This document shows, in pieces, positions 1,065-53,248 of a stretch of 64,000 nt of DNA. Position numbers and translations under genes: made by a program. The stretch's first letter is position 1, and each line of letters opens with the position of its first letter. The notes below the pieces were generated by a model. It was given only the letters and a program-made list of their open reading frames with translations, searched no databases and was not told the DNA's origin. The stretch lies in the sequence record MH752840.1; one strand, written 5' to 3'. The DNA comes from Escherichia phage vB_EcoM-Pr121LW.

Positions 1065-4000
1065 TGCCAATTGCAATGATTGATAACATCGTTGCTTCTG
1101 CAAGATCTTCAAGTTATGACTGGAACGCATCCAAGGCAGCTCTGGCTGACAGCCTGAACACTGTTACCACCAGAACTCTGGATAAGATTTTTGAGGGCAA
1201 CAAATCTTACAGAAGTCAGCAAGATAGACAAAAGCTTCTCAGATCTTCTGCTGCACCCTGCTCTGTAGTGTATGGGAAGACACGCACGTCTGGGCTGCTT
1301 GCGTTTTTGGAGCAGGACAGAGACAGAACCCTCCATTGTGCCATTGTTCTTGCTAATCATCCTCTGGAAGGTATAGAAGACATACTCATCGACGGTAATC
1401 CTATTTCCTCGTATGGAGATCTGGTATCGTGGGAGCTACATAACGACAGAAAAACATCTGATCCTTTCATGGGTACACACTGCCCATCGTGGTCACCAGA
1501 TATGATAGGCAGAGGTATCAGTTGGCTGCGTGCCAGCTTCAAGTTTGACCCCAGTAAGTTTCCTTTTGGGTTGCCAAACGTTACACTGGTCAAGGTTGGT
1601 AAAAAATGCTATGACCCCCGCATCAGTAAAGAGGTGTATACCAATAACGCGGCCTTGGTGATCCTGGACTATTTAAGAACGTACCTTAAATGTCCTGACG
1701 AAACCATCAACTGGGAGTCCTTTAGGGAGGCTGCCAATATATGCGACGAGGCGGTAAAAAACGCTGACGGAACCAGTGAGCGACGTTACACCATTAACGG
1801 TGAGTTTGACATGGATGAGGCCCCAGCAAGTATTATGGCAGAAATGCTGAAAGCTTGCGGTGCAGACCTTAGTTATGTTGCTGGTAAGTATGGTTTGCTG
1901 GTTGGTGCATACTATGGCCCAGCAACAATGACACTGAGTGAGGATTGTGTCTGTGGTGAGGTCAAGATCTATCCGGAAGCCTCCTTTGACAAGAGATCCA
2001 ACACAATAACTGGCAGATTCACTAGTCCGACCAAAGGGTATTCTGAAACAGATTTTCCATCAGTGTTTGTCCCAGAGTGGATAGAGAAGGATGGAGAAAG
2101 AAAGATAATTGATATAGACTATCGCTTTGTTACCAGTCCTTATCAAGCTCAGCGTGTTTCTGCAATCTTCTTAAGACGTGCTAGAGCTGGCAGGATTATT
2201 GAAGTCACCTGCAATATGCGAGGTTTTAAATTTAAACCTGGCCGTTACGTTACAATGGACCTTCCAAGTATTGGTATAGTAGGCCAAGAAATGAGGGTTC
2301 TTGAATGGGAGTTCACCAAAAAGGGCGGTGTCAAGGTAAAACTTCGTCAAGATGCTAAAGAGTGGAATGATGCCACAGGGCAACTTCCGGATTCTGGTGA
2401 TGTAGATATTCCGATATCTCCATCTGGTGTAGCTCAACCGCAAAACTTCAGATATTCCGTTCTCCAAGCCGGGGAAGTAACTCACGGTGTTTTGGCTTGG
2501 GACAACGTTGGAACTTACGCTCAAAATATTGTGCAGGTAAGAAAGAACGGAGAGATTGTTTGGACAGCACAGACAGTTGAGCAGTTTGTCCGAGTAGAAG
2601 GCTTGACCAAAGGATCATACACAGCAACCGTGGTTGCAACATCTTATAAAGGTGGTGTATCTCCAGAAGCGTACTGCGAGTTCAACATTCAGGCACCTGA
2701 AGCTCCTGTTTCTGTGGAGGTTAAGCAGGGATACTTTGCTATTACCCTGATCCCGCACAGCAGAGACTTGGCTAGTGTAAGCACCCAGTACGACTTTTGG
2801 ACATCTGGGATGACAAGATTGCCAGATACCAGTGATGTAACAGTTACTTCAAAAGCCACTCGTATGGGTGTTGGTTCAACTTGGACATCTGAAGGTCTGC
2901 AGAACGATAAGATTTATTACTGGTATATCAGGACAACAAATGCTTTTGGTTCATCTGCTTTTGTGGAGTGTGCAGCCCACTGTTACACATCCATAGAAGA
3001 TCTTATGCCACAGATTGATGCTGAGTTCAAAAAGACAGAGACTTATAAAGAGCTTACCGCCAATCTTGATAATGCAGTCAAGGAAATGGATAAAAATGTT
3101 GGTGCAGTCAATGACCGTGTTACTAGCATTTTTGAAGAGCTTGGGGATACAATAGAGGGTGTTGTCAGAGAGACGACAGAAAAATTTACAGGGGTTAATG
3201 GAGAAATTTCTGCCCTTAACAGTAAGCTGGTAGCAGCTCAGCAATCCTTTGACGATAAACTTGCAGCAGAGTCTGGTAGGCTTGGGTCACTAATCGAGAC
3301 AACAAATAGATCAACCGTTGATCTTGTTAATCGTAAAACTCAAGCATTGAGTGAGCAAATAACTGCAACTCAAGGTGCTCTGCGGGAAGAGTTGAAGAAC
3401 ACTGAGAGCAAACTTAACTCCTCTATTCAAGAAACCAACAAGGCAACAACCGATCTGCTAAATAAGACAACGGAAGCTATTAAGCAGGATCTGGTGGCAG
3501 CTACAGGGAAGATCACCAAGCTGGAAGATGATGTGCAGAAAGAGGTTGCCAATCTGCAAGCATCTATTCAAGAAACTAATAGTACAACAGTTGATCTTGT
3601 TAATAATACAGCCACAGCGATCCGTCAAGAACTTACCTCTGCAAAACAAGAAATTGTTGACGAAATGGGTAATATTGATGAGCTCAGGGCTACAGTATCT
3701 AATACCTCTAAAGCTGTAACAACACTTGAGGGTAAAATAGATGCTCAGTGGGGAGCTAAGATTCAGGTTGACAGCCATGGTAATAAATATGTGGCAGGTA
3801 TCCAGCTGGGCATGGAGGGGTCTGGAGGACAAGTTCAATCATACTTCATGGTTAGTGCAAACAACTTTGCGGTATACAACCCCGGAAATGGAACAGCAAC
3901 CCTTGCTTTCGCAATCAAGAACAACCAAGCGTTCTTGAAAGACGCTTTTATAGAGAATGGCACGATCTCCTCTGCCAAGATCGCACAAGAAATTTCGTCA

Positions 4001-36379: not shown

Positions 36380-36439
36380 TAAGATGTTAGTCTAAAGGGG
36401 AGGCACTCCTCCCCACAAAAACTAAGGAAGCACTAAACG

Positions 36440-40516: not shown

Positions 40517-40574
40517 TGTTTAACCAAGAGTGGGAGGGGTAGTACAACCGCCTCCCCTTTAAGGAGAACACTTT

Positions 40575-45150: not shown

Positions 45151-45539
45151 TGAAAAATATTTGGGATATCAATATCTTTGAAGCCTCTAAGCTTGATGGT
45201 GCTGATGGAGTGATTATGGTATCTGATGGCAAGGCAACACTAACTTCCGGAGATATCATCTATGCCTTGGACGAGCTGGCGCTTCTGAAATCTACCGGTA
45301 ACACTCTAGAGGAGCGTCTTCAAGGCTTCGCCTTCAAAGAAGGTACAAATACAGCCATGATGTGCACCACACGGACAGTTCAGATGGGTAACGGTGTCTA
45401 TATGATTATTGCTGTGTGTCCTAAATTCAGCAACGTCAACAAAGATGATGCTGACGCGGTGAACGATGTGGTTGTTCTCTTCGTGGGTGACGCTATGGCA
45501 GATCTGATGAATGCAGGGGAAGCAGCAAATGAAGACTGA
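45147..45539 (+). CDS. hypothetical protein
   Basis: 130 aa. Confidence 0.5.
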   Translation: MMKNIWDINIFEASKLDGADGVIMVSDGKATLTSGDIIYALDELALLKSTGNTLEERLQGFAFKEGTNTAMMCTTRTVQMGNGVYMIIAVCPKFSNVNKDDADAVNDVVVLFVGDAMADLMNAGEAANED

Positions 45540-45831
45540 AAACATCACCCCAGCAGGGTTCTTAAAAGTATACCGTGAACTGCTGTATACTACAGAGGAC
45601 AGTGTTCTAGAGTATCCAGAATATCTCTTGCTGTATAAGTATCTGCAGGAGGCTGGTGAAAATCTGCCAGTTAGTGCAGAAGGCGGTCCGAACTGGGTAT
45701 ACAGCGCATGGAGAAAGGTTGACATTATCCCAGACCCAGGCAAAGATATGGTAGTTTGGCAGCTTATCAACAACATCGGGATTCCAATCTTTGATGAAGC
45801 TGTTAAAATCTATTTTGAACTTGACGATTAA
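45529..45831 (+). CDS. hypothetical protein
   Basis: ORF track 45511; ATG 45529 preferred. Confidence 0.45.
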   Translation: MKTENITPAGFLKVYRELLYTTEDSVLEYPEYLLLYKYLQEAGENLPVSAEGGPNWVYSAWRKVDIIPDPGKDMVVWQLINNIGIPIFDEAVKIYFELDD

Positions 45832-45848
45832 TATCAGGAGACCTTAAG

Positions 45849-46094
45849 ATGACTGAAGTAGTTGCTCGCGCAGGACAGAAAGTACGTTGTGTTGAAGTAG
45901 GTTTTGGTGGCAAAGGGTGTCAAAACTTGACTCAAGGTAAGGAATACGCTGTTATCTCTGGTGGTGGCGACGAAAGTATTGTGTTCGAGGGCCACATCCT
46001 GGATGCTGAAAACTTTGAAATCTTTGACGACGATGGGGATCCGATCACCTGCCTGCTGGACGGGAATTGGGGAACTTTCGAAGTGATTGGCTAA
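45849..46094 (+). CDS. small protein, paralogue family member 6
   Basis: 81 aa; motif FDDDGDPITC. Confidence 0.5.
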   Translation: MTEVVARAGQKVRCVEVGFGGKGCQNLTQGKEYAVISGGGDESIVFEGHILDAENFEIFDDDGDPITCLLDGNWGTFEVIG

Positions 46095-46104
46095 CAAATA
46101 CCTA

Positions 46105-46133
46105 TTGTAATTTACAGAAGGGGATGCTAAAAT
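46105..46133 (+). promoter_or_regulatory. candidate promoter TTGTAA-17-TAAAAT
   Basis: -35 at 46105-46110, -10 at 46128-46133; upstream of ATG 46178. Confidence 0.4.
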
Positions 46134-46177
46134 AGTGTCTCCTTCTATGTTGTTCAAATAAAATCGGAGATTCCATA

Positions 46178-46543
46178 ATGGAACAAATGAACGATCAAGA
46201 GTCGGTTGCGATGAACGAGCAAGAACAACCTCAAGAATTTTTCTTAGGGTTAAGTAAAGATCAAGTGTCTCTTTTGCTAGTGCTTTCTTCTTTCATGGGA
46301 AGACTTCAGGAGCTCACACAACAACCGGAGGCTGAACAATTATTTCAGGCTCTGCGTGAAGAAGAAAAATATCGTCGTTTGGACTATGCCTTAGGTTGGG
46401 TAGCTCAACAACGAGATATGCTAATGGCCCTCTCTGGGACCACAAGTTTTGCAATGGGCCTATTGGCTCAAGTTCAGGACAAATTAATTCAAGCAGGGTT
46501 TGCACACACGGCAAACACTAACGAAGAACAAGGAGACAAATAA
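46178..46543 (+). CDS. hypothetical protein
   Basis: 121 aa; Gln/Glu-rich. Confidence 0.5.
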   Translation: MEQMNDQESVAMNEQEQPQEFFLGLSKDQVSLLLVLSSFMGRLQELTQQPEAEQLFQALREEEKYRRLDYALGWVAQQRDMLMALSGTTSFAMGLLAQVQDKLIQAGFAHTANTNEEQGDK

Positions 46544-47769
46544 TGAGCGTTATTCAACAATTTGCTAACCCGATGAATCCGCGTGAAACTGTTTTACTGG
46601 CTCACGGTATGATCAAGCGTGTTAGCATCAAACCTATTAAAGGAGCTGATCCTGCAACAGGTATTAAAACCACCGTGTGGCAAGGTAAGAAAATTGAATC
46701 CAGCCACACCATCTCTTTACTGATTTCTGAACTGGATTCCTCTGATAACCTACTTCAAGGCGGTGAAGAAGTCTGGATCAGCATGGGTGATAAGCTGCTT
46801 AAACCTGGCCATCAAGACTCTGTCTCTGTTAAGATTGATGACAAGTGGGAAACCGTAACGCCAGGATGGATCGTAAATATTCCTTTGAAGGCAAACGAGC
46901 ATAACGGTAAGACCTATTACAAAGGCTCACTGGCTAAGATGGTCAAGCTGGGTGCAGGAGAGGCTCCAGCAGCGACTCAGCAGCAAAAACAGCAACAAGG
47001 TGCACAATCACAAGGCCAGAAGCAGAAACCTCAGCAGAATGCCAATCAGGACGTTTTACGCATCTATGGCGATGTGACTCAGATTGTTGGCAACGTGGTT
47101 ACTGTTAATGACCACAAGATCGGCGAAGGTGCTATGGTTGTCACGGATGAGCAGCTTAAAGACCTGGTGGTAGGTGGTCGTGTTGCAGCCATTGTTGACA
47201 AAGACACCGGAAACATTATCAGTGGTTTCAAAGCCTATCCACCTAAGGCAGAGAACGGCACCCAAGGTTCTGGTGGCAAGCGTAAATCCTCTTACGACCC
47301 TATTGGTGTGGAGACTGGGCATAGCATCAATGCGTTGCAAATCATCCTGGATCGCGGGTTTAAGGTAGACGACCCACTAGGTGTGGCTAAAGCACTGCAC
47401 GTAGTCACCATTGAGCTTAAGAAAGAGTATGCTCAAGCCACCAACCGAACTGAAGATGAAGTAGGTGCCAGTGTCGGTAATGCGGTGTTGAACGCTTGTC
47501 GCCGTATTGACAAGAAAACGAAAGTTGATGATTTTGCAGCGGCAATTACTGCAGAAGCAAAAGATGTGTTGACTAATCTGGCTGAGCCGTTGTACGATTG
47601 GATCAAGAACGGTGCTGGGTCAACTGACCATCAAGAACCTCAGGCTGCCAAACAGGAAGCAGCTCCACAGCAAAACACTGTAGACGCTCCTCCTGTAAAT
47701 GATGGGGAAGACGACCCGATGGATCAGAATCCAGCACAGTACGCCTTTGATGATGACATCCCCTTCTAA
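46543..47769 (+). CDS. ssDNA-binding protein-like, C-terminus DDDIPF
   Basis: 408 aa; Gln-rich linker; acidic C-terminal tail ending FDDDIPF as in bacterial SSB; replication-module context. Confidence 0.5.
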   Translation: MSVIQQFANPMNPRETVLLAHGMIKRVSIKPIKGADPATGIKTTVWQGKKIESSHTISLLISELDSSDNLLQGGEEVWISMGDKLLKPGHQDSVSVKIDDKWETVTPGWIVNIPLKANEHNGKTYYKGSLAKMVKLGAGEAPAATQQQKQQQGAQSQGQKQKPQQNANQDVLRIYGDVTQIVGNVVTVNDHKIGEGAMVVTDEQLKDLVVGGRVAAIVDKDTGNIISGFKAYPPKAENGTQGSGGKRKSSYDPIGVETGHSINALQIILDRGFKVDDPLGVAKALHVVTIELKKEYAQATNRTEDEVGASVGNAVLNACRRIDKKTKVDDFAAAITAEAKDVLTNLAEPLYDWIKNGAGSTDHQEPQAAKQEAAPQQNTVDAPPVNDGEDDPMDQNPAQYAFDDDIPF

Positions 47770-47784
47770 CATCTAGTTAACATA

Positions 47785-47814
47785 GCCCTGCCCGAAAGGG
47801 TGGGGCATTTTTGT
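47785..47814 (+). terminator. rho-independent terminator GCCCTGCCC-GAAA-GGGTGGGGC plus T-run
   Basis: Second copy of the 37639 terminator hairpin, followed by ATTTTTGT. Confidence 0.7.
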
Positions 47815-47831
47815 ATAAGGAGATCTGAAAA

Positions 47832-48248
47832 ATGACATTAGAAGATATCATTGTTAAACCTGAGAACTATGACCAATACAACCTGTCAACTCAATCTGTA
47901 GACCTTGGATGCGCCACAGTCAGTGCGTGGCTGGTTAACGGAAAAGAGCTGGACAAGTGCTTAGAAGCTCACATGTCTGTTAACAAGTTTCTGGATGAAA
48001 ATACTCACTGGCTTGAGGGTGCTGGAGTATATGCTTCATGGTTGGAGAGCATGGGCTTTGACTATCAATCTGATGAAGGGTGGTGGAGCTATCTAGCTAT
48101 CTGTCCAGAAACACTGCAATGCTTCATGAAATATTCTGAAGATTTGGAGTACCGGGCGGTGGTTGATAGTGCTATTGCCCGTTATAGCCGTAAACCTTTT
48201 TCCCACGACATTAAAACTGTGGAAGAGTTTGTTGAAGTTTTCTGTTGA
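47832..48248 (+). CDS. hypothetical protein
   Basis: 138 aa; AAGGAG SD. Confidence 0.5.
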   Translation: MTLEDIIVKPENYDQYNLSTQSVDLGCATVSAWLVNGKELDKCLEAHMSVNKFLDENTHWLEGAGVYASWLESMGFDYQSDEGWWSYLAICPETLQCFMKYSEDLEYRAVVDSAIARYSRKPFSHDIKTVEEFVEVFC

Positions 48249-48343
48249 CACAGGTTGAAAGGTGTGCAATTATAACTTCATAGACTGGAGGACGTGATGA
48301 ACGAAGAAAACTGGGATGTATAACTAACAGGAGGCCACTGCCC

Positions 48344-48541
48344 ATGATTTATCGAATCCGTGTAAGAGAAGATGCACCAGGCTGTTACTTTGACTGGCGT
48401 GGGTGGTGGTTTCTCCACCCAATGGATGGACTCACAGATAGAATGCTGGATGCTGCCTTTTATACAGATACCGACATAGAATATAATCTCTATCTGAAAG
48501 ACGGTATAGATAACGGCCTGTTTGAAGCAATTCCTGTGTAA
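48344..48541 (+). CDS. hypothetical protein
   Basis: 65 aa; AGGAGG SD. Confidence 0.45.
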   Translation: MIYRIRVREDAPGCYFDWRGWWFLHPMDGLTDRMLDAAFYTDTDIEYNLYLKDGIDNGLFEAIPV

Positions 48542-48609
48542 GAGACTGTGATAGCTATGTTTTATGATCTTCCTGTAGCACCACCACCTGTTGAACCCGG
48601 AGAACTAAG

Positions 48610-49035
48610 ATGATCTATGAAATGCCAAAACTGATTCATGACGATGCCCAAAACGCTCACACCATTATTATGGGTAAGCGCATGGATATTATTTGTCATA
48701 AAGATTTCTGGGAAGGGAGTTACTTCACGGAATATTTTGGTAAACTGGATAATGGTCTGCTGATCCAGTTCTACACCGATGCGGAAAACAATATCTGCTG
48801 GGAGTTCGAAACTGAAGATATCCATAAACTTTTCACCTTCCTAGGTATTAAGGTTGAGGCCAAGTTCGAAGAAGGTGAGTGCGACGATTGTGGATTCTAC
48901 GAGGTAACAGATTTCTATCTCCCAAGTGGTGAGAACCTTTACTATGAAAGCCACTTCGGCAACTCAAATATGCCACAAGGTTGGGATGAGTTTTTTGAAA
49001 TTGTGGAAGAGGAGCTGGCATACCGTGATTATTGA
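48610..49035 (+). CDS. hypothetical protein
   Basis: 141 aa. Confidence 0.5.
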   Translation: MIYEMPKLIHDDAQNAHTIIMGKRMDIICHKDFWEGSYFTEYFGKLDNGLLIQFYTDAENNICWEFETEDIHKLFTFLGIKVEAKFEEGECDDCGFYEVTDFYLPSGENLYYESHFGNSNMPQGWDEFFEIVEEELAYRDY

Positions 49036-49483
49036 TACTGTAGAGGGAGATTTAATCTCCCTTTTTAAGAGCGGCGCTGGTCACCTGATCCACGGTTGTA
49101 ACTGCTTCCACACAATGGGCAAGGGGATAGCAAAACAGATTGCCCGTGAGTTCCCTCAAGCATTGGCAGCTGACAAAGAGACCAGACATGGTTGCCTAAG
49201 TAAACTGGGTGCGTTCTCCCGATGGGAGCACTTATCTCCGAGAGGTATTGTCTACGGAATCAATCTGTATACTCAGTTCTACCCAGGACCTAATGCTGAA
49301 TATTTCTCAATCCTGAAAGGCTTTGAGCTAGTCAATGAGGTATTCAGTGGATCGACTTTACCATTCTACATCCCTAAGATCGGGTGCGGCATAGGCGGTT
49401 TGAAGTGGGAGCACGTAGAGGACGTTATTAACCTTGCCACTTTTGATATGAATATTATCGTGGTGGAGTACAAAAAGTGTTGA
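49025..49483 (+). CDS. macro-domain protein (ADP-ribose binding/processing)
   Basis: ORF track 48926 overlaps upstream gene; GTG 49025 preferred; motifs HGCNCFHTMGKGIAKQIAREFP and PKIGCGIGGL. Confidence 0.65.
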   Translation: MIIDTVEGDLISLFKSGAGHLIHGCNCFHTMGKGIAKQIAREFPQALAADKETRHGCLSKLGAFSRWEHLSPRGIVYGINLYTQFYPGPNAEYFSILKGFELVNEVFSGSTLPFYIPKIGCGIGGLKWEHVEDVINLATFDMNIIVVEYKKC

Positions 49484-49508
49484 CAGCGGGTTTTTGAGAT
49501 GGTATAGT
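49480..49508 (+). promoter_or_regulatory. sigma70 promoter TTGACA-17-TATAGT
   Basis: -35 at 49480-49485 overlaps macro gene stop; -10 at 49503-49508. Confidence 0.6.
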
Positions 49509-49536
49509 CACCACAACGATTGAGAGAGGGAGCACT

Positions 49537-49707
49537 ATGGAGACTAAAATCTTAATTCTGGCTGTGATAGATACAACCGAAGGGGCTGTGTTCGAATCTG
49601 CAGGAGGGTATTTCTACCTACCCTACGGAAAAAGAACTGCTGAACCAGGTAAAGATTCAATCATCAAAGTGTTCCCGTGTGCTTTCTGGCTGGATATTTT
49701 GGTATAA
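49537..49707 (+). CDS. small hypothetical protein (not in ORF track)
   Basis: 56 codons; GAGGGAG SD; directly downstream of promoter. Confidence 0.3.
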   Translation: METKILILAVIDTTEGAVFESAGGYFYLPYGKRTAEPGKDSIIKVFPCAFWLDILV

Positions 49708-49733
49708 GATTGCAGAGGATTTGGGAGAGAATT

Positions 49734-49928
49734 ATGAGAAACAAGAGAGAGCTTTACTCTGGCGAGTGGATAAACGATCAACAGGTTGGAGAGGTAACCT
49801 GCTTCCGGTGTTTTACTCGGTACAATCTTAAAACTGCACCAAAAAGTGTTCCAAAGACTGATGGTTATTACATAAAAGAGCCTCATTGCCCGAAATGTAA
49901 ATGCCGAGTATACTGGAGTAACCTGTAA
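49734..49928 (+). CDS. small zinc-ribbon protein
   Basis: ORF track 49677 (GTG); ATG 49734 with GGAGAG SD; CFRC…CPKC. Confidence 0.45.
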   Translation: MRNKRELYSGEWINDQQVGEVTCFRCFTRYNLKTAPKSVPKTDGYYIKEPHCPKCKCRVYWSNL

Positions 49929-49932
49929 AAGA

Positions 49933-49960
49933 TTGACATCTGAAAACTGCGGTGTATAAT
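49933..49960 (+). promoter_or_regulatory. sigma70 promoter TTGACA-16-TATAAT
   Basis: -35 at 49933-49938, -10 at 49955-49960. Confidence 0.6.
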
Positions 49961-49991
49961 ACAAACATAAACTAGCAGAGAGGGATATATT

Positions 49992-50183
49992 ATGGTAATT
50001 TTTAATCGAGACGGTATCATAGTCAGGCAGCACCCATTCCTTGAATACTATCAAATTGAGCAATGGTGCTACGGAGATTGCAGTCACTCCTATGGGCAAA
50101 GTTGGGGATATCGCACAGTTTTTGAATCAACAGACCTTGACAAAGTAAGACAGAAAGTTTTAGAACTTATTAACAACAAGTGA
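49992..50183 (+). CDS. hypothetical protein
   Basis: 63 aa. Confidence 0.45.
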   Translation: MVIFNRDGIIVRQHPFLEYYQIEQWCYGDCSHSYGQSWGYRTVFESTDLDKVRQKVLELINNK

Positions 50184-50193
50184 GTATCGTGCC

Positions 50194-50526
50194 ATGGTAA
50201 CATTGGAAAGACGTAAAGCTATCGCCGCCACACTGGCAGACATCTTTTGGGATTGCAACTTAAAAGATACCCGAAATTGTGGCGCATCTGTAGATGTATT
50301 ATTCCCACGGCCTACCATTGTTGCAATGGGAAACCTGTCAAACGTAGTGTACGGAGCATGGGACAAAGAAGGTGGATTCTATATCTGGCAACCTGACTAC
50401 GGAGCCTGGAAAGAGGTAAGGGGTGCGGTTGACTTTGGGCCTACAAGTGCTAAGATGGATGGCTGGGAAATTTATGTTGGAAACGACATGAAGCTGAAAG
50501 GCGAGATTGTTTACTGGTTGCCTTAA
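50194..50526 (+). CDS. hypothetical protein
   Basis: 110 aa. Confidence 0.5.
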   Translation: MVTLERRKAIAATLADIFWDCNLKDTRNCGASVDVLFPRPTIVAMGNLSNVVYGAWDKEGGFYIWQPDYGAWKEVRGAVDFGPTSAKMDGWEIYVGNDMKLKGEIVYWLP

Positions 50527-50546
50527 GAACGTGCAGGAGATAAAGT

Positions 50547-50792
50547 ATGAACAAAGGGTGGACATTCGTAGACGGCGTTAAAAACATGCCTCTTGGAAAG
50601 TATATTGTAGCCATGGCAGATGAGAATGGCAAGGTGGATTTCGGAGTTTGCGAGGTTGTTCTTGCAGGATCTGGCGACTATGTGCACAAAACTGGGATAA
50701 TTAACGGTCATTTCTACTTTGATTACAACCCTGTTGTGGCGTATATGGCTATGCCAGAGTTTAAGTTCCCAAAGGAGGGTGCTGATGTTTAA
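50547..50792 (+). CDS. hypothetical protein
   Basis: 81 aa; AGGAG SD. Confidence 0.5.
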   Translation: MNKGWTFVDGVKNMPLGKYIVAMADENGKVDFGVCEVVLAGSGDYVHKTGIINGHFYFDYNPVVAYMAMPEFKFPKEGADV

Positions 50793-50982
50793 GCTTAAAT
50801 CCGCATGGAACATTGCTGTAGGTGACGAGATCCGTATTCCCGGTGGAGAAACTATTATGAAGATATCTCGTATCGAGTATGAAGGTGACCGTGTATTCCA
50901 CATCTTTGCAGAAGATGGTCGAGAAATTTATATACAGGCAGGCTCTCACATCTATATCCGTAAGAAAGGGGACGACAAATGA
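50785..50982 (+). CDS. hypothetical protein
   Basis: ORF track 50719; ATG 50785 after AAGGAGGG preferred. Confidence 0.45.
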   Translation: MFKLKSAWNIAVGDEIRIPGGETIMKISRIEYEGDRVFHIFAEDGREIYIQAGSHIYIRKKGDDK

Positions 50983-51311
50983 CAGAGATCATCGTTTCAA
51001 CTGCAGGGTATGTATTCCTGACAATCATTGCGCTGGCTATTCTGGTGGCGGTGTATGGATTTGTTATCCTGCCTATTCTTGAGACATTTAGTTTGTGTCG
51101 GTGTTGGAGAAAAGCTTACGGACCACAACCGTGGAAAGACTGGTTCCATTTGGTGCGTATAGCGTTCTCTTATGCCTATGACCACTCTAGCAGTGCATGC
51201 GTAACCGGGTACCATGCCTACAACTGGAACTGGGAAGGGTTGGGGAGATGGACTGTTACAAAAACTATACCCTTACGGTTGTACAAAGGAAAGAACAAAC
51301 TGGGCACCTGA
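50979..51311 (+). CDS. small membrane protein
   Basis: 110 aa; N-terminal hydrophobic helix FLTIIALAILVAVYGFVILPIL. Confidence 0.5.
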   Translation: MTEIIVSTAGYVFLTIIALAILVAVYGFVILPILETFSLCRCWRKAYGPQPWKDWFHLVRIAFSYAYDHSSSACVTGYHAYNWNWEGLGRWTVTKTIPLRLYKGKNKLGT

Positions 51312-51355
51312 TATTTTAAGTTATCAGGTTCCCAGAGATCAGGAGGATTTCTAAA

Positions 51356-51568
51356 ATGGATTTCCTCCTTTTGATATTTCACCGGACCAGATATTTTAAA
51401 ATTCTTAGAAAATCAGAAAATGGATCGAAAACTAAAATGGATTTTTTCAACACAGGCGCGGAAAATTGTGCCAATCTATCTAGCCGTTTGCACCATATTC
51501 GAAATCACCGTTCCAGATTTCCCACACATACACACCTCCCCGCCATACCTTTCTCCACTCACTCTTAG
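51356..51568 (+). CDS. basic His/Arg-rich hypothetical protein
   Basis: 70 aa; strong AGGAGG SD 7 nt upstream; sits inside repeat-rich region so coding status uncertain. Confidence 0.35.
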   Translation: MDFLLLIFHRTRYFKILRKSENGSKTKMDFFNTGAENCANLSSRLHHIRNHRSRFPTHTHLPAIPFSTHS

Positions 51569-51620
51569 TGATTTATGACGGAAAACCCATCACTATCAGT
51601 GAGTTGCGGTACAATTTTTC

Positions 51621-51800
51621 CAGTACTCGATCTACTTTTCATTTCATGGTTTGGATTTTCTGAAAATTTTTCTCGATAAATTTCTCAGTACTCGATCTGT
51701 TTTTCGTTTTCTGAATCGGATTTTCTGGAAATCGTTCCGGCTCTCGACCTGAAATTTTTGGGGACGAAATCGATTTTTCGTTTTCAGAAATGGATTTTTA
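51621..51800. repeat. AT-rich direct repeats with ~65-bp period (two good copies plus a degenerate third)
   Basis: CAGTACTCGATCT at 51621 and 51686; shared TTTTCnTTTTC…GGATTTTCTGRAAA tails. Confidence 0.7.
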
Positions 51801-51912
51801 AAATTTCTATATGGGAATATTTTATGGGGTACTGTTTTATAGGAAATTGTTACGGATGGTAATTAGCATGCTAATTAAATTTATTAAATGCGAGGAGTTC
51901 TCATTTAGAATT

Positions 51913-51931
51913 TTGAATGATAATCATTCTC
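51913..51931. promoter_or_regulatory. Fur-box-like palindrome (15/19 to GATAATGATAATCATTATC)
   Basis: ttgAATGATAATCATTcTC; core AATGATAATCATT is a perfect 6-1-6 palindrome. Confidence 0.35.
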
Positions 51932-51946
51932 GTTTGCAGAATAACG

Positions 51947-51969
51947 GGCAGGCCCGGTGATTGTCTCCC
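51947..51969 (+). repeat. GC-rich 23-bp element GGCAGGCCCGGTGATTGTCTCCC (copy A)
   Basis: Inverted copy at 61604-61626 (22/23 identical); variant at 52088-52121. Confidence 0.8.
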
Positions 51970-52048
51970 GGCCCCTACTGCCCCGGCTTGCTATTATAGT
52001 AACACACAGGACAAAGAAAGCAAGAAGTTTTTGCATAAATTTTTAGAC

Positions 52049-52067
52049 GATAATGATAATCGTTCTC
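52049..52067. promoter_or_regulatory. Fur-box-like site (17/19 to GATAATGATAATCATTATC)
   Basis: GATAATGATAATCgTTcTC; followed 20 nt later by GC element variant, repeating the arrangement at 51913-51969. Confidence 0.4.
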
Positions 52068-52087
52068 ATTTCATGCAGCGCCCATCC

Positions 52088-52121
52088 CCGGTGGTTGTCT
52101 CCCCCGTCACCGGTGCCTGCC
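52088..52121. repeat. variant GC element CCGGTGGTTGTCTCCC…CACCGGTGCCTGCC (copy B)
   Basis: Carries both halves of the 23-bp element in rearranged, partly inverted form. Confidence 0.6.
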
Positions 52122-52146
52122 GTCCTTTCGATAGGTATATTGTGCC

Positions 52147-52285
52147 ACCTGGCGGGGCCGCTGTCAACACTTTTCAAAAAATTTTTCTAACCTGATGCGC
52201 TAACCGCTGCAACCTGGCGGGGCCAGCCTGGCAGTACCTAACTGACCAGGTAGGAGAGAATGAAGGCTTGTAAACCTGGTGGGCC
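52147..52285 (+). repeat. three direct copies of ACCTGG(C/T)GGGCC at 62-65 bp spacing
   Basis: Copies at 52147, 52212 and 52274; related copies at 52451 and 59321. Confidence 0.6.
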
Positions 52286-52326
52286 TATGCTATAGGATAG
52301 GTAACAATTGAAGAGGAGGTACAAAA

Positions 52327-52503
52327 ATGAAAGGTAATATAATCCCCCTGGAAAATGTAGCTATTAATGACGCTGAGGCTATCGCCCTGGTTGAAAAGGC
52401 TATGGCGGGAGCGTTGGAACATAAAGAAGAGTACGAAAAAATGATGGTTAACCTGGCAGGGGCGGCGGCTGGAGAATTCTGCCCAAAAAATAATTTTACA
52501 TAA
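52327..52503 (+). CDS. small hypothetical protein (58 aa, not in ORF track)
   Basis: GAGGAGG SD 7 nt upstream of ATG; stop abuts next promoter. Confidence 0.45.
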   Translation: MKGNIIPLENVAINDAEAIALVEKAMAGALEHKEEYEKMMVNLAGAAAGEFCPKNNFT

Positions 52504-52506
52504 TGG

Positions 52507-52535
52507 TTGACAGCTCGGATAGTTCTTGTTATTCT
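52507..52535 (+). promoter_or_regulatory. sigma70-like promoter TTGACA-17-TATTCT
   Basis: -35 at 52507-52512, -10 at 52530-52535. Confidence 0.5.
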
Positions 52536-52587
52536 TATCCTCGCAAGGTGAACAACACCACACTAATTAACAAAGAGGATAAAAATC

Positions 52588-52785
52588 ATGAACGCATACG
52601 GAATCAAAGTACGTCGCAACACTCGCCAGGTGGTCACCGACCAAGTGATTTGCCGGGTGGATGTAACCATCAACAACGGGCAAGGCCTTTATAAATTTCG
52701 TCGCGGTCATAGCTATACCCTGCAACAGCTTAACCGTTGCGCCCTGACAAAAGGTCAGATCAACCACTGGTTTAATAAAAAATAA
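52588..52785 (+). CDS. small basic hypothetical protein
   Basis: 65 aa; SD/start context AAGAGGATAAAAATCATG. Confidence 0.5.
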   Translation: MNAYGIKVRRNTRQVVTDQVICRVDVTINNGQGLYKFRRGHSYTLQQLNRCALTKGQINHWFNKK

Positions 52786-52788
52786 ATA

Positions 52789-52817
52789 TTGACATATAGT
52801 CTGACACAAAATATACT
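52789..52817 (+). promoter_or_regulatory. sigma70 promoter TTGACA-17-TATACT
   Basis: -35 at 52789-52794, -10 at 52812-52817. Confidence 0.65.
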
Positions 52818-52849
52818 GAAATCACAAAAGACACTAAGAGGATAAAATC

Positions 52850-53248
52850 ATGAAAACCACAACCTTTAATTTTGATAATGCCGACTTCTCTTTTTCTGAT
52901 GTCAAGAACTGCCGCCGTGATCGTGGATTTTACAAGGCTTATAATCTGGTGGGCCTGGACGATGACAATAATTTGCACGAAGTAGCTGAGATCCGGTATT
53001 ATGCCGCCTCCAGCGGTAACACTCATTATTGCGTCTTTTGGATGCACGACAGCAAGAACAACAAGTACGGTTATACTGGTGGCAAGGCGAGCGGTCACGG
53101 TTATGATAAGGCCAATGCAGCACTTGAAAGCGCGTTAAATGCTATGGGGATCACTGCCAACGGCTGGATCTATGAAGATGAGTTTTTGTCAGCACTTGCT
53201 GCCCACCTGGGGTATAAAAAGCACATTGTGACATGCGCCCACGAATAA
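52850..53248 (+). CDS. hypothetical protein
   Basis: 132 aa; SD AAGAGGATAAAATCATG. Confidence 0.55.
   Translation: MKTTTFNFDNADFSFSDVKNCRRDRGFYKAYNLVGLDDDNNLHEVAEIRYYAASSGNTHYCVFWMHDSKNNKYGYTGGKASGHGYDKANAALESALNAMGITANGWIYEDEFLSALAAHLGYKKHIVTCAHE

What the first reader, a model, noticed from the sequence alone, without database searches (positions are those of the whole stretch)
49025..49483. Stand-alone macro-domain protein
A protein of about 152 aa carries macro-domain signatures (HGCNCFHTMGKGIAKQIA and PKIGCGIGGL). Macro domains bind or hydrolyse ADP-ribose adducts; the DarG antitoxin that reverses DarT DNA ADP-ribosylation is a macro domain. The phage protein may therefore reverse host ADP-ribosylation-based defence or process NAD-derived signals.
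Basis: partly seen in the sequence, partly recalled or inferred. Interest (0 to 1): 0.55.

Follow-up and report, generated by a model that had tools for sequence, protein, structure and literature searches.

The report
Phage macro-domain anti-DarT enzyme (AdfM-type)
This is a real, well-conserved 152-residue macro-domain enzyme of an rV5-like E. coli phage, belonging to the same family as phage T4 Tk.4/AdfM, which lets T4 escape the DarTG2 defence that ADP-ribosylates phage DNA; it is an ordinary, untested member of a recently characterised kind.

Summary
Window 49025-49483 (+) is a 152-aa gene with a GTG start preceded by AGGAG. It carries both quoted motifs, passes Pfam's Macro threshold, gives a confident model (pLDDT 96.5) and is under purifying selection (dN/dS 0.12-0.23).

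The window is a Vequintavirus (rV5-like E. coli phage). Near-identical genes are already annotated as 'macro domain protein', 'phosphatase' or 'O-acetyl-ADP-ribose deacetylase'.

One refinement: the family has an invariant Gln (Q84) where DarG and TARG1 have the catalytic Lys. Streptomyces SCO6735, a proven thymidine-ADPr DNA hydrolase, has the same Gln.

The Bas54 orthologue is dispensable on E. coli K-12.

Verdict: new member of a known kind, low to moderate interest.

The parts
49025..49483 (+). Coding sequence of the 152-aa macro-domain protein (GTG start, TGA stop), an AdfM/Tk.4-family ADP-ribosyl hydrolase
49010..49014 (+). Shine-Dalgarno-like AGGAG, 10 nt upstream of the GTG start, inside the 3' end of the upstream gene
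   Evidence: Read directly from the sequence
49091..49144 (+). Motif 1, residues H23-A40 (HGCNCFHTMGKGIAKQIA). It contains H23, G24 and the invariant N26 (codon 49100-49102), plus the G32-x-G34 loop. H23 and N26 correspond to SCO6735 H24 and N27; G24 aligns with V25, whose role there is through its backbone
   Evidence: Residue roles in SCO6735 are taken from PMC9411070
49262..49276 (+). Motif N80-L-Y-T-Q84. Q84 (CAG, 49274-49276) occupies the position of the catalytic Lys of DarG (K80) and TARG1 (K84), and equals Gln85 of SCO6735
   Evidence: Profile-to-PDB alignments. Q84, N80 and Y82 are invariant in 82 plus 142 family members
49373..49402 (+). Motif 2, residues P117-L126 (PKIGCGIGGL): the glycine-rich loop that binds the ADP-ribose diphosphate in macro domains. 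P117, G120 and G122 are invariant
48610..49035 (+). Upstream 141-aa gene of unknown function (PHROG 8157). Its stop overlaps the macro gene's start by 11 nt, so the two are probably co-transcribed and translationally coupled. It is not a conserved partner
   Evidence: tblastn finds it in only 176 phage records against 2,782 for the macro gene. No similarity to T4 Vs
49480..49508 (+). Sigma-70-like promoter match (TTGACA-17-TATAGT with TG) that begins in the macro gene's stop codon. It probably drives the next small gene (49537-49707) and marks the 3' edge of the unit
   Evidence: 11 of 12 consensus matches. This is a consensus match only; function is not shown
48245..48273 (+). Candidate sigma-70-like promoter (TTGACA-17-AATTAT, TG) upstream of the 48344-48541 / 48610-49035 / 49025-49483 gene run. 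A terminator-like hairpin lies further upstream at 47785-47806
   Evidence: 10 of 12 matches. The region has 28 promoter-like sites against 14.3 +/- 2.9 in shuffles. Assignment to this unit is inference

Best explanation
The gene encodes an orphan, antitoxin-like ADP-ribosyl glycohydrolase of the phage AdfM (T4 Tk.4) family.

Proposed mechanism (inferred, not shown for this protein):
- It is made from a block of small accessory genes rich in host-type promoter matches, probably early in infection.
- When a host DarT2 toxin ADP-ribosylates thymidines in single-stranded phage DNA and stalls replication, the macro domain binds the ADP-ribose moiety. The glycine-rich loop G120-G125 would hold the diphosphate.
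- N26 would lock Q84, and Q84 would position the distal ribose.
- The enzyme would then hydrolyse the ribose-thymine N-glycosidic bond, releasing free ADP-ribose and restoring intact DNA.

The catalytic position holds an invariant Gln rather than the Lys of DarG and TARG1. The chemistry is therefore expected to follow the water-mediated mechanism proposed for Streptomyces SCO6735, not a lysine-dependent one. The protein has no DarT-binding domain, so it should act mainly on the modification. SCO6735 also inhibits DarT directly, so that cannot be excluded here.

Shown here: the gene is real and is a TARG1/DarG-class macro domain; it is homologous to Tk.4; the active-site residues are conserved; the orthologue is dispensable on K-12.

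Inferred: the substrate, the timing and the defence it counters.
For: Macro domain:
- Pfam match above cut-off.
- AlphaFold2 model with pLDDT 96.5.

Class:
- Foldseek gives the same set.
- The only PADLOC hit is DarG (E 1.1e-13). The best NCBIfam hit is the DarG macro region.

Family:
- 39% identity over the full length to T4 Tk.4, E 4e-40.
- 69% identity to the Krischvirus GEC-3S gene that sits at the tk.4 position (regB, vs.1, vs, macro, tk.3-like genes, tk, rI), which is itself 44% identical to T4 Tk.4.
- All three fall in PHROG 335.

Function of homologues:
- T4 tk.4/adfM was the single significant hit of a transposon screen on a DarTG2 host, and a clean knockout became DarTG2-sensitive.
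- PhiKZ AdfM removes DarT2 ADP-ribose from DNA.

Active site:
- N26, N80, Y82, Q84, P117, G120 and G122 are invariant in 82 homologues and in 142 further cluster representatives.
- Q84 aligns with SCO6735 Gln85. That residue is essential for hydrolysis of thymidine-linked ADP-ribose on DNA, and SCO6735 protects against DarT.

Accessory character:
- The Bas54 orthologue bas54_0092 (81% identity) tolerated insertions at 31 of 31 TA sites on K-12.
- The gene is nevertheless under purifying selection, dN/dS 0.12-0.23.
- It is present in 2,782 of 50,697 phage records.
Against: - No experiment exists for any Vequintavirus macro protein, and I found no report of how these phages fare on DarTG2 hosts.
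- The T4 evidence is genetic only, from a preprint. Enzymatic removal was stated there as 'seems likely'.
- At 39% identity, substrate specificity could differ.
- The biochemically proven phage AdfM (PhiKZ gp104) is only 23% identical and has the DarG-type Lys.
- The protein lacks the extended mobile loop and the Lys89 that SCO6735 uses for DNA binding. Its calculated pI is 6.6, not basic.
- Macro domains of this class also act on protein-linked ADP-ribose, O-acetyl-ADP-ribose and ADP-ribose-1''-phosphate.
- bas54_0092 showed no depletion in the one clinical-isolate comparison readable in the stored supplement (log2FC +0.42, q = 1).
Confidence: 0.62

Rival explanations
1. It is a housekeeping enzyme for small ADP-ribose metabolites: an ADP-ribose-1''-phosphate phosphatase (Poa1p-like) or an O-acetyl-ADP-ribose deacetylase. 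It would clear by-products of the phage's own NAD-consuming enzymes. In particular, Vequintaviruses carry a Sir2, RNA ligase and Nudix cluster that has been proposed to act in tRNA/RNA repair.
For: - Poa1p residue H23 (the site of the deposited H23A mutant structure) is conserved as H23, and Poa1p S30 corresponds to T30.
- PHROG 335 and RefSeq call the family 'phosphatase'. BP9 annotates it as an O-acetyl-ADP-ribose deacetylase.
- The relative JES2013 encodes a putative RNA ligase (gp076), Sir2 (gp078) and a nucleotide pyrophosphohydrolase (gp079).
- Iyer et al. 2022 propose that such phage sirtuins act like KptA and generate ADP-ribose cyclic phosphate (PMC9503650).
Against: - The macro gene lies about 50 kb from the Sir2 cluster in JES2013. 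Iyer et al. note that these sirtuins are not coupled to a macro gene.
- T4 has Tk.4 but, to my knowledge, no sirtuin, and the T4 phenotype is specific to DarTG2.
- The 'phosphatase' labels are transferred names, not tested functions.
Confidence: 0.14
2. It erases ADP-ribose from proteins or RNA rather than DNA. It would either undo host ADP-ribosyltransferase defence toxins that modify RNA or proteins (for example CmdT-type mRNA ADP-ribosylation), or tune ADP-ribosylation by phage-encoded transferases.
For: - TARG1 (protein Glu/Asp-ADP-ribose) is the top Foldseek hit.
- SCO6735 also de-modifies auto-ADP-ribosylated PARP1, and Q85 is required for that activity too.
- The T-even phages that carry Tk.4 also encode the Alt, ModA and ModB transferases (established knowledge; Alt and ModA are mentioned).
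Against: - TARG1's Lys/Asp catalytic dyad is absent (Q84).
- No ADP-ribosyltransferase is annotated in the complete genome of the relative JES2013.
- The only phenotype known for the family is sensitivity to DarTG2.
Confidence: 0.12
3. It intercepts ADP-ribose-derived immune signals. It would bind as a sponge, or cleave, molecules such as Thoeris gcADPR or His-ADPR so that the host effector is not activated.
For: - Iyer et al. argue that phage macro domains may prefer soluble ADP-ribose derivatives.
Against: - The strictly conserved catalytic-site residues point to an enzyme of the DarG/SCO6735 type.
- I found no report of a phage macro domain acting against Thoeris.
Confidence: 0.06

Closest known systems
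T4 Tk.4 = AdfM (anti-DarT factor macro; HIDEN-SEQ preprint, bioRxiv 10.1101/2025.11.20.689424)
   Same: - Stand-alone macro domain of about 152-155 aa, alignable end to end at 39% identity, E 4e-40.
- Same PHROG 335.
- Same HGCNCFHTMG and NLYTQFxPGPN motifs, including the Gln at the catalytic position.
- Dispensable on K-12.
- The Krischvirus gene at the tk.4 position is 69% identical to the window protein.
   Different: - Different phage family (Vequintavirinae against Straboviridae) and different neighbours: here an unknown 141-aa gene, in T4 vs and tk.3.
- The second glycine loop differs slightly (IGCGIGGL here, IGAGIGKG in T4).
- The anti-DarTG2 phenotype is shown only for T4.
PhiKZ gp104 = AdfM of chimalliviruses (Cell Rep 2026, PMC13309987)
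   Same: - Phage-encoded orphan macro domain of the DarG class.
- Same PHROG 335.
- Biochemically removes DarT2 ADP-ribose from DNA.
   Different: - Only 23% identity.
- Keeps the DarG-type catalytic Lys (FPTKDNW; K78) where the window protein has Q84.
- Scores 133 bits on the PADLOC DarG model against 49 bits here.
- It is imported into a phage nucleus, which Vequintaviruses are not known to form.
DarG2 antitoxin macro domain (T. aquaticus, M. tuberculosis; PDB 5M31, 5M3E, 5M3I)
   Same: - Conserved Asn (N22 in DarG, N26 here) and glycine loop.
   Different: - No C-terminal DarT-binding domain and no adjacent darT.
- The catalytic Lys80 is replaced by Gln.
- NCBIfam DarG equivalog score is 47 bits against a cut-off of 250.
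Streptomyces coelicolor SCO6735 and Bacteroides BT1257 (PDB 5E3B, 2AFC/2FG1)
   Same: - Orphan macro domains of the same class with Gln at the catalytic position (SCO6735 Q85 = Q84 here).
- Conserved His-x-x-Asn (H24/N27 = H23/N26) and IGCG loop.
- SCO6735 hydrolyses thymidine-linked ADP-ribose on DNA and protects against DarT.
   Different: - About 22-23% identity.
- The loop after the Gln is shorter (QFYPGPN against QHGMKTGSKGAP), so Lys89 of the SCO6735 mobile loop has no counterpart.
- K34 is matched by K33 in this protein but is mostly Ala across the family.
- These are cellular proteins, not phage proteins.
Human TARG1/OARD1 (PDB 4J5R, 4J5S)
   Same: - Best Foldseek match (E 7e-10, TM 0.78-0.85).
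- Same class.
   Different: The Lys84/Asp125 dyad that defines TARG1 catalysis on Glu/Asp-ADP-ribose is absent here (mechanism from PMC9411070).
Yeast Poa1p, ADP-ribose-1''-phosphate phosphatase (PDB 6LFQ-6LFU)
   Same: - The N-terminal motif IHSCNCNGSWGGGIA aligns with IHGCNCFHTMGKGIA, with H23 conserved.
- It is the source of the 'phosphatase' label.
   Different: - Poa1p is about 25 residues longer, with insertions.
- S30 corresponds to T30.
- The match is split into two weak stretches in the single-sequence search.
- No phosphatase activity has been shown for any member of the phage family.

Membership tests
Macro domain superfamily (Pfam PF01661) | Profile match above the curated gathering score | tested here: met
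   28.3 bits against a cut-off of 22, E 1.9e-6. The family profile hits 16 solved macro domains at E down to 1e-16.
Macro domain superfamily (Pfam PF01661) | Three-layer alpha/beta/alpha macro fold with a glycine-rich ADP-ribose-binding loop | tested here: met
   [not shown]
TARG1 / DarG / Poa1p / SCO6735 class of macro domains ('ALC1-like' in PMC9411070) | Closest structures and sequences are members of this class rather than MacroD, PARG, viral nsp3 or macroH2A types | tested here: met
   [not shown]
Phage AdfM, T4 Tk.4 type | Full-length sequence homology to T4 Tk.4 with shared signature motifs | tested here: met
   39% identity over 152 of 155 residues, E 4e-40. Same PHROG 335. 69% identity to the Krischvirus gene at the tk.4 position.
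Phage AdfM, T4 Tk.4 type | Dispensable on hosts that lack DarTG2 | tested here: met
   From the literature, for the 81%-identical orthologue: bas54_0092 had 31 of 31 TA sites disrupted and was classed 'Non-essential' on K-12. This was not tested for this exact phage.
Phage AdfM, T4 Tk.4 type | Required for, or sufficient for, phage growth on a DarTG2 host | not testable with these tools
   Shown only for T4 and for PhiKZ gp104. I found no data for Vequintavirinae.
Phage AdfM, T4 Tk.4 type | Removes thymidine-linked ADP-ribose from ssDNA | not testable with these tools
   Biochemistry exists for PhiKZ AdfM, DarG and SCO6735, not for the Tk.4 lineage.
DarG2 antitoxin (NCBIfam NF048014 equivalog; PADLOC DarG) | Score at or above the equivalog cut-off, with two-domain architecture (macro plus C-terminal DarT-binding domain) | tested here: not met
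   47.4 bits against a cut-off of 250. Only profile positions 3-139 of 338 are matched, and the protein is 152 aa. PADLOC DarG positions 4-141 of 329 are matched.
DarG2 antitoxin (NCBIfam NF048014 equivalog; PADLOC DarG) | Catalytic lysine (K80 in T. aquaticus DarG) | tested here: not met
   Gln84 aligns with the first Lys of DarG's TKKHW, the residue I assign as K80. It is invariant as Gln in 224 family members.
DarG2 antitoxin (NCBIfam NF048014 equivalog; PADLOC DarG) | Encoded next to a darT toxin gene | tested here: not met
   The ten neighbouring ORFs have no Pfam hits and only PHROGs of unknown function. The upstream gene has no PADLOC hit.
SCO6735 / BT1257-type (Gln-type) DNA ADP-ribosyl hydrolases | Gln at the catalytic position, held by the conserved Asn (Q85/N27 in SCO6735), with His24 and Gly126/128 | tested here: met
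   Q84, N26, H23, G120 and G122 align to these residues. I checked the numbering against the mutants listed in PMC9411070.
SCO6735 / BT1257-type (Gln-type) DNA ADP-ribosyl hydrolases | Extended, positively charged mobile loop after the Gln (Lys89) | tested here: not met
   The loop is about 5 residues shorter (QFYPGPN) and has no Lys. The K34 equivalent is Lys here but Ala in most family members.
Poa1p-type ADP-ribose-1''-phosphate phosphatase | Residues H23 and S30, sites of the deposited Poa1p mutant structures; phosphatase activity | tested here: inconclusive
   H23 is conserved and S30 corresponds to T30. T30 is only moderately conserved in the family (80 of 142). Activity is not testable here.

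The most novel reading that the evidence does not exclude
The Tk.4/Vequintavirus lineage may not be a simple DarG copy. It may be a separate, Gln-type recruitment of a macro domain with a lysine-independent, water-mediated mechanism and a broader or different substrate range than thymidine-ADPr DNA. For example, it might also clear ADP-ribose-1''-phosphate or cyclic phosphate from the phage's own Sir2/RNA-ligase repair module, or ADP-ribosylated RNA or His-ADPR-type signals. A single 17-kDa enzyme would then disarm several NAD-based defences.
Probability: 0.15. Interest if true: 0.55.

Novelty: new member of a known kind. Interest (0 to 1): 0.28.

Why it matters
DarTG systems stop phage replication by ADP-ribosylating phage DNA. 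Knowing which therapeutic or typing phages carry an eraser helps predict host range. rV5-like phages are widely used against E. coli O157:H7.

If the assignment holds, most Vequintaviruses carry a ready-made anti-DarTG2 factor. In that case AdfM-type macro domains would be among the commonest phage counter-defence genes: homologues occur in 2,782 of 50,697 phage records.

The invariant Gln at the catalytic position suggests that phages recruited macro erasers at least twice, once as the Lys type (PhiKZ) and once as the Gln type (T4 and rV5). This gives enzymologists a compact natural model of the lysine-independent mechanism so far proposed only for SCO6735.

Tried and rejected
- **Longer ORF from GTG 48926 (185 aa).** Rejected. 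It overlaps the upstream gene in another frame, and all homologues start at MII.
- **Filing the protein as DarG.** Rejected on score, architecture, catalytic residue and context.
- **A functional partner in the overlapping upstream gene.** It has no Pfam or PADLOC hit, no similarity to T4 Vs, and occurs in only 176 phage records. I treat it as a neighbour only.
- **An ADP-ribosyltransferase, NADAR or NAD-salvage gene nearby.** None is annotated around the gene. The complete genome of the relative JES2013 has a Sir2, RNA ligase and Nudix cluster about 50 kb away.
- **tRNA and Rfam scans of the window.** Nothing found.
- **Literature searches that led nowhere.** A search for 'AdfM' was swamped by journal DOIs, one search failed on a short term, and the LeRoux 2022 DarTG paper is not held.
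- **Not done.** I could not inspect side-chain geometry in the model. The Q84-N26 contact is inferred from alignment to SCO6735, not measured. I did not test whether E. coli hosts of this phage carry DarTG2, because no DarT DNA query was available for the E. coli genome collection.

Full report
**Observation**

The stretch 49025-49483 on the + strand is an open frame of 152 codons plus a stop. It starts at a GTG that overlaps the TGA of the preceding gene (48610-49035) by 11 nt. An AGGAG lies 10 nt upstream.

The mechanical ORF list extends the frame back to GTG 48926. That extension runs through the upstream gene in another frame. All annotated relatives use the 49025-equivalent start, and T4 and Krischvirus Tk.4 align from residue 1.

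The macro assignment is well above chance:
- Pfam PF01661 scores 28.3 bits against a gathering score of 22.
- PHROG 335 matches at E 4.8e-59.
- A profile of 82 homologues hits solved macro domains at E about 1e-16.
- The AlphaFold2 model has mean pLDDT 96.5 and pTM 0.91.

Comparison with five orthologues gives dN/dS of 0.12-0.23, with dS up to 1.1. This is a gene under purifying selection.

**Where it sits**

The window is a Vequintavirus, an rV5-like myovirus of E. coli. A 2.8-kb stretch around the gene is 95-97.5% identical to O157 typing phage 4, BP9, JES2013 and others. In those records the gene is already called 'macro domain protein', 'phosphatase' or 'O-acetyl-ADP-ribose deacetylase'.

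The gene lies downstream of the replication module (rIIB, helicase, AAA ATPase, DNA polymerase). It is inside a run of about fifty small same-strand genes of unknown function. The ten nearest ORFs have no Pfam hits and fall only in PHROGs of unknown function.

Sigma-70-type promoter matches are about twice as frequent here as in shuffled sequence: 28 against 14.3 +/- 2.9. One 11-of-12 match starts in the gene's stop codon, and a perfect consensus lies at 49933-49960. This fits host-polymerase, probably early, transcription, but that is inference.

**Fold class**

The next score is 13.8, for coronavirus, alphavirus, PARP and MacroD macro domains. Foldseek and sequence-profile rankings give the same set plus SCO6735. 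The protein therefore belongs to the TARG1/DarG/Poa1p/SCO6735 class.

**Link to a characterised phage function**

tblastn finds homologues in 2,782 of 50,697 phage records. Among them are the tk.4 genes of T4-like phages.
- The T4 Tk.4 protein, taken from NC_000866, aligns end to end at 39% identity, E 4e-40.
- A bridge makes the relationship firmer. In Krischvirus GEC-3S, the gene at the tk.4 position (regB, vs.1, vs, macro, three small genes, tk, rI) is 69% identical to the window protein and 44% identical to T4 Tk.4.
- A 2025 preprint reports that tk.4 was the single significant hit when a T4 transposon library was grown on a DarTG2 host. A clean knockout became DarTG2-sensitive, and the authors named the gene adfM.
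- Independently, PhiKZ gp104, also named AdfM, was shown to remove DarT2-made ADP-ribose from DNA and to protect chimalliviruses from DarTG2.

All three proteins fall in PHROG 335.

**Active site**

The window protein is not a miniature DarG.
- Against the NCBIfam DarG equivalog it scores 47 bits (cut-off 250) and covers only the macro half.
- It has no DarT-binding domain and no darT neighbour.
- Where DarG has 'TKKHW' and TARG1 'TKKR', with the catalytic Lys (K80 and K84), this protein has 'YTQF'.
- Gln84 is invariant in 82 homologues and in 142 further 50%-cluster representatives. So are N26, N80, Y82, P117, G120 and G122.
- T4 Tk.4 has the same NLYTQFxPGPN motif. PhiKZ gp104 keeps the Lys (FPTKDNW), is only 23% identical, and scores far higher on the DarG model.

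The Gln has a precedent. In Streptomyces SCO6735, Gln85 occupies this position and is essential. Asn27 holds it in place, and a backbone-positioned water is proposed to start hydrolysis of thymidine-linked ADP-ribose. SCO6735 protects cells against DarT.

I checked the register of the profile alignment against the published mutants. H24, N27, K34 and Q85 of SCO6735 correspond to H23, N26, K33 and Q84 here, and SCO6735 V25 aligns with G24.

There are differences. The loop after the Gln is shorter and lacks SCO6735's Lys89. K33 is Ala in most family members.

So phages appear to carry two kinds of macro eraser, a Lys type (PhiKZ) and a Gln type (T4, Krischvirus, rV5-like). I did not find this distinction stated in the papers I read.

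**Dispensability**

Bas54 of the BASEL collection is phage MaxBurger. Its gene bas54_0092 is the syntenic orthologue, 81% identical. In the HIDEN-SEQ data, all 31 TA sites took insertions and the gene was classed non-essential on E. coli K-12. T4 tk.4 behaves the same way, with 45 of 46 sites hit.

A gene that is dispensable in the laboratory yet conserved and under purifying selection is what one expects of a counter-defence gene. In the one clinical-isolate comparison readable in the stored supplement, the gene was not depleted. That says only that that strain did not require it.

**Most likely mechanism**

The protein is an orphan, antitoxin-like ADP-ribosyl glycohydrolase that strips DarT2-type thymidine ADP-ribose from single-stranded phage DNA, allowing replication to proceed. 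The glycine loops would bind the diphosphate, and N26 and Q84 would position the distal ribose. Chemistry would follow the lysine-independent route proposed for SCO6735.

What is shown is the fold, the class, the family membership, the residue conservation and the accessory status. Substrate, timing and target defence are inferred from homologues. I put this at about 0.6.

**Rivals**

- *Metabolite housekeeping* (ADP-ribose-1''-phosphate phosphatase or O-acetyl-ADP-ribose deacetylase). This is the source of the database labels. It gains some colour from a Sir2, RNA ligase and Nudix cluster in the relative JES2013, which Iyer et al. interpret as NAD-dependent RNA repair. That cluster is about 50 kb away and is not known to be coupled to a macro gene.
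- *Erasing protein or RNA ADP-ribosylation.* This is compatible with the class but lacks the TARG1 dyad and any phenotype.

**Verdict**

The finding is real and its interpretation is essentially right. It is, however, an untested member of a family that is already widely annotated and, since 2025-2026, functionally characterised in T4 and PhiKZ.

The only modestly new point is the invariant Gln-type active site shared with T4 AdfM and SCO6735. Novelty: new member of a known kind. Interest: low to moderate.

Noticed in passing
window 51312-52326: About 1 kb with no convincing ORF, 1.8 kb downstream of the macro gene. It contains three copies of a 47-nt unit spaced 65 and 74 nt apart (51613-51798). 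It also has a two-copy unit of about 55 nt spaced about 135 nt apart (51916-51969 and 52052-52103), and TGCnACCTGGCGGGGCC twice (52143, 52208). No Rfam family or tRNA matches. It could be iterons, an origin, or small RNAs.
   Followed up: partly
GenBank MG0656xx records (hits H2-H5, H11-H13 and others): Sixteen records named 'Campylobacter phage', with host given as Campylobacter jejuni, are about 96-97% identical to this E. coli Vequintavirus over the region. The host labels are probably wrong, or the lysates were contaminated.
   Followed up: no
window 47770-47831, 40517-40574 and 36380-36439: The window lacks three insertions present in relatives. One is the homing endonuclease ('endonuclease VII') overlapping the end of the 408-aa gene in JES2013, Bas54 and Bas58. 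The second is the HNH endonuclease between the AAA ATPase and the DNA polymerase. The third is a 1.3-kb methyltransferase gene in JES2013. These are mobile-gene presence/absence polymorphisms.
   Followed up: partly
window 46543-47769: A 408-aa protein with no Pfam match (PHROG 4477, unknown function). Its Bas54 counterpart by gene order, bas54_0087, is classed 'Essential', with only 8 of 57 TA sites hit. This is an essential Vequintavirus gene of unknown function, 1.3 kb upstream of the macro gene.
   Followed up: no
L010 (JES2013 NC_022323) 65875-68633, outside the window: Vequintavirus relatives carry an adjacent putative RNA ligase (gp076), Sir2 (gp078) and nucleotide pyrophosphohydrolase (gp079). 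This matches the sirtuin-based RNA-repair neighbourhood proposed by Iyer et al. 2022. It is a possible second NAD/ADP-ribose link in this phage group.
   Followed up: partly
L011 (Krischvirus GEC-3S) 3001-3456; hits H132-H138: Both the macro gene (69% identity) and the unrelated upstream 141-aa gene (about 37% identity, at a different locus) are shared between Vequintaviruses and Krischvirus-type T4-like phages of E. coli. This suggests exchange of accessory genes between the two groups.
   Followed up: partly
window 49933-49960 and 45500-53000 generally: A perfect sigma-70 consensus (TTGACA-16-TATAAT) lies at 49933-49960. Promoter-like sites across the small-gene block are about twice as frequent as in shuffles (28 against 14.3 +/- 2.9).
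   Followed up: no
BFVD entry A0A481YV05 (Marseillevirus LCMAC103): The best viral structure match (TM 0.93, 39% identity) is the macro part of a 302-aa 'SNF2 subfamily protein' from a giant-virus metagenome bin. Either a phage-type Gln macro domain has been fused in a eukaryotic virus, or the bin is contaminated.
   Followed up: no
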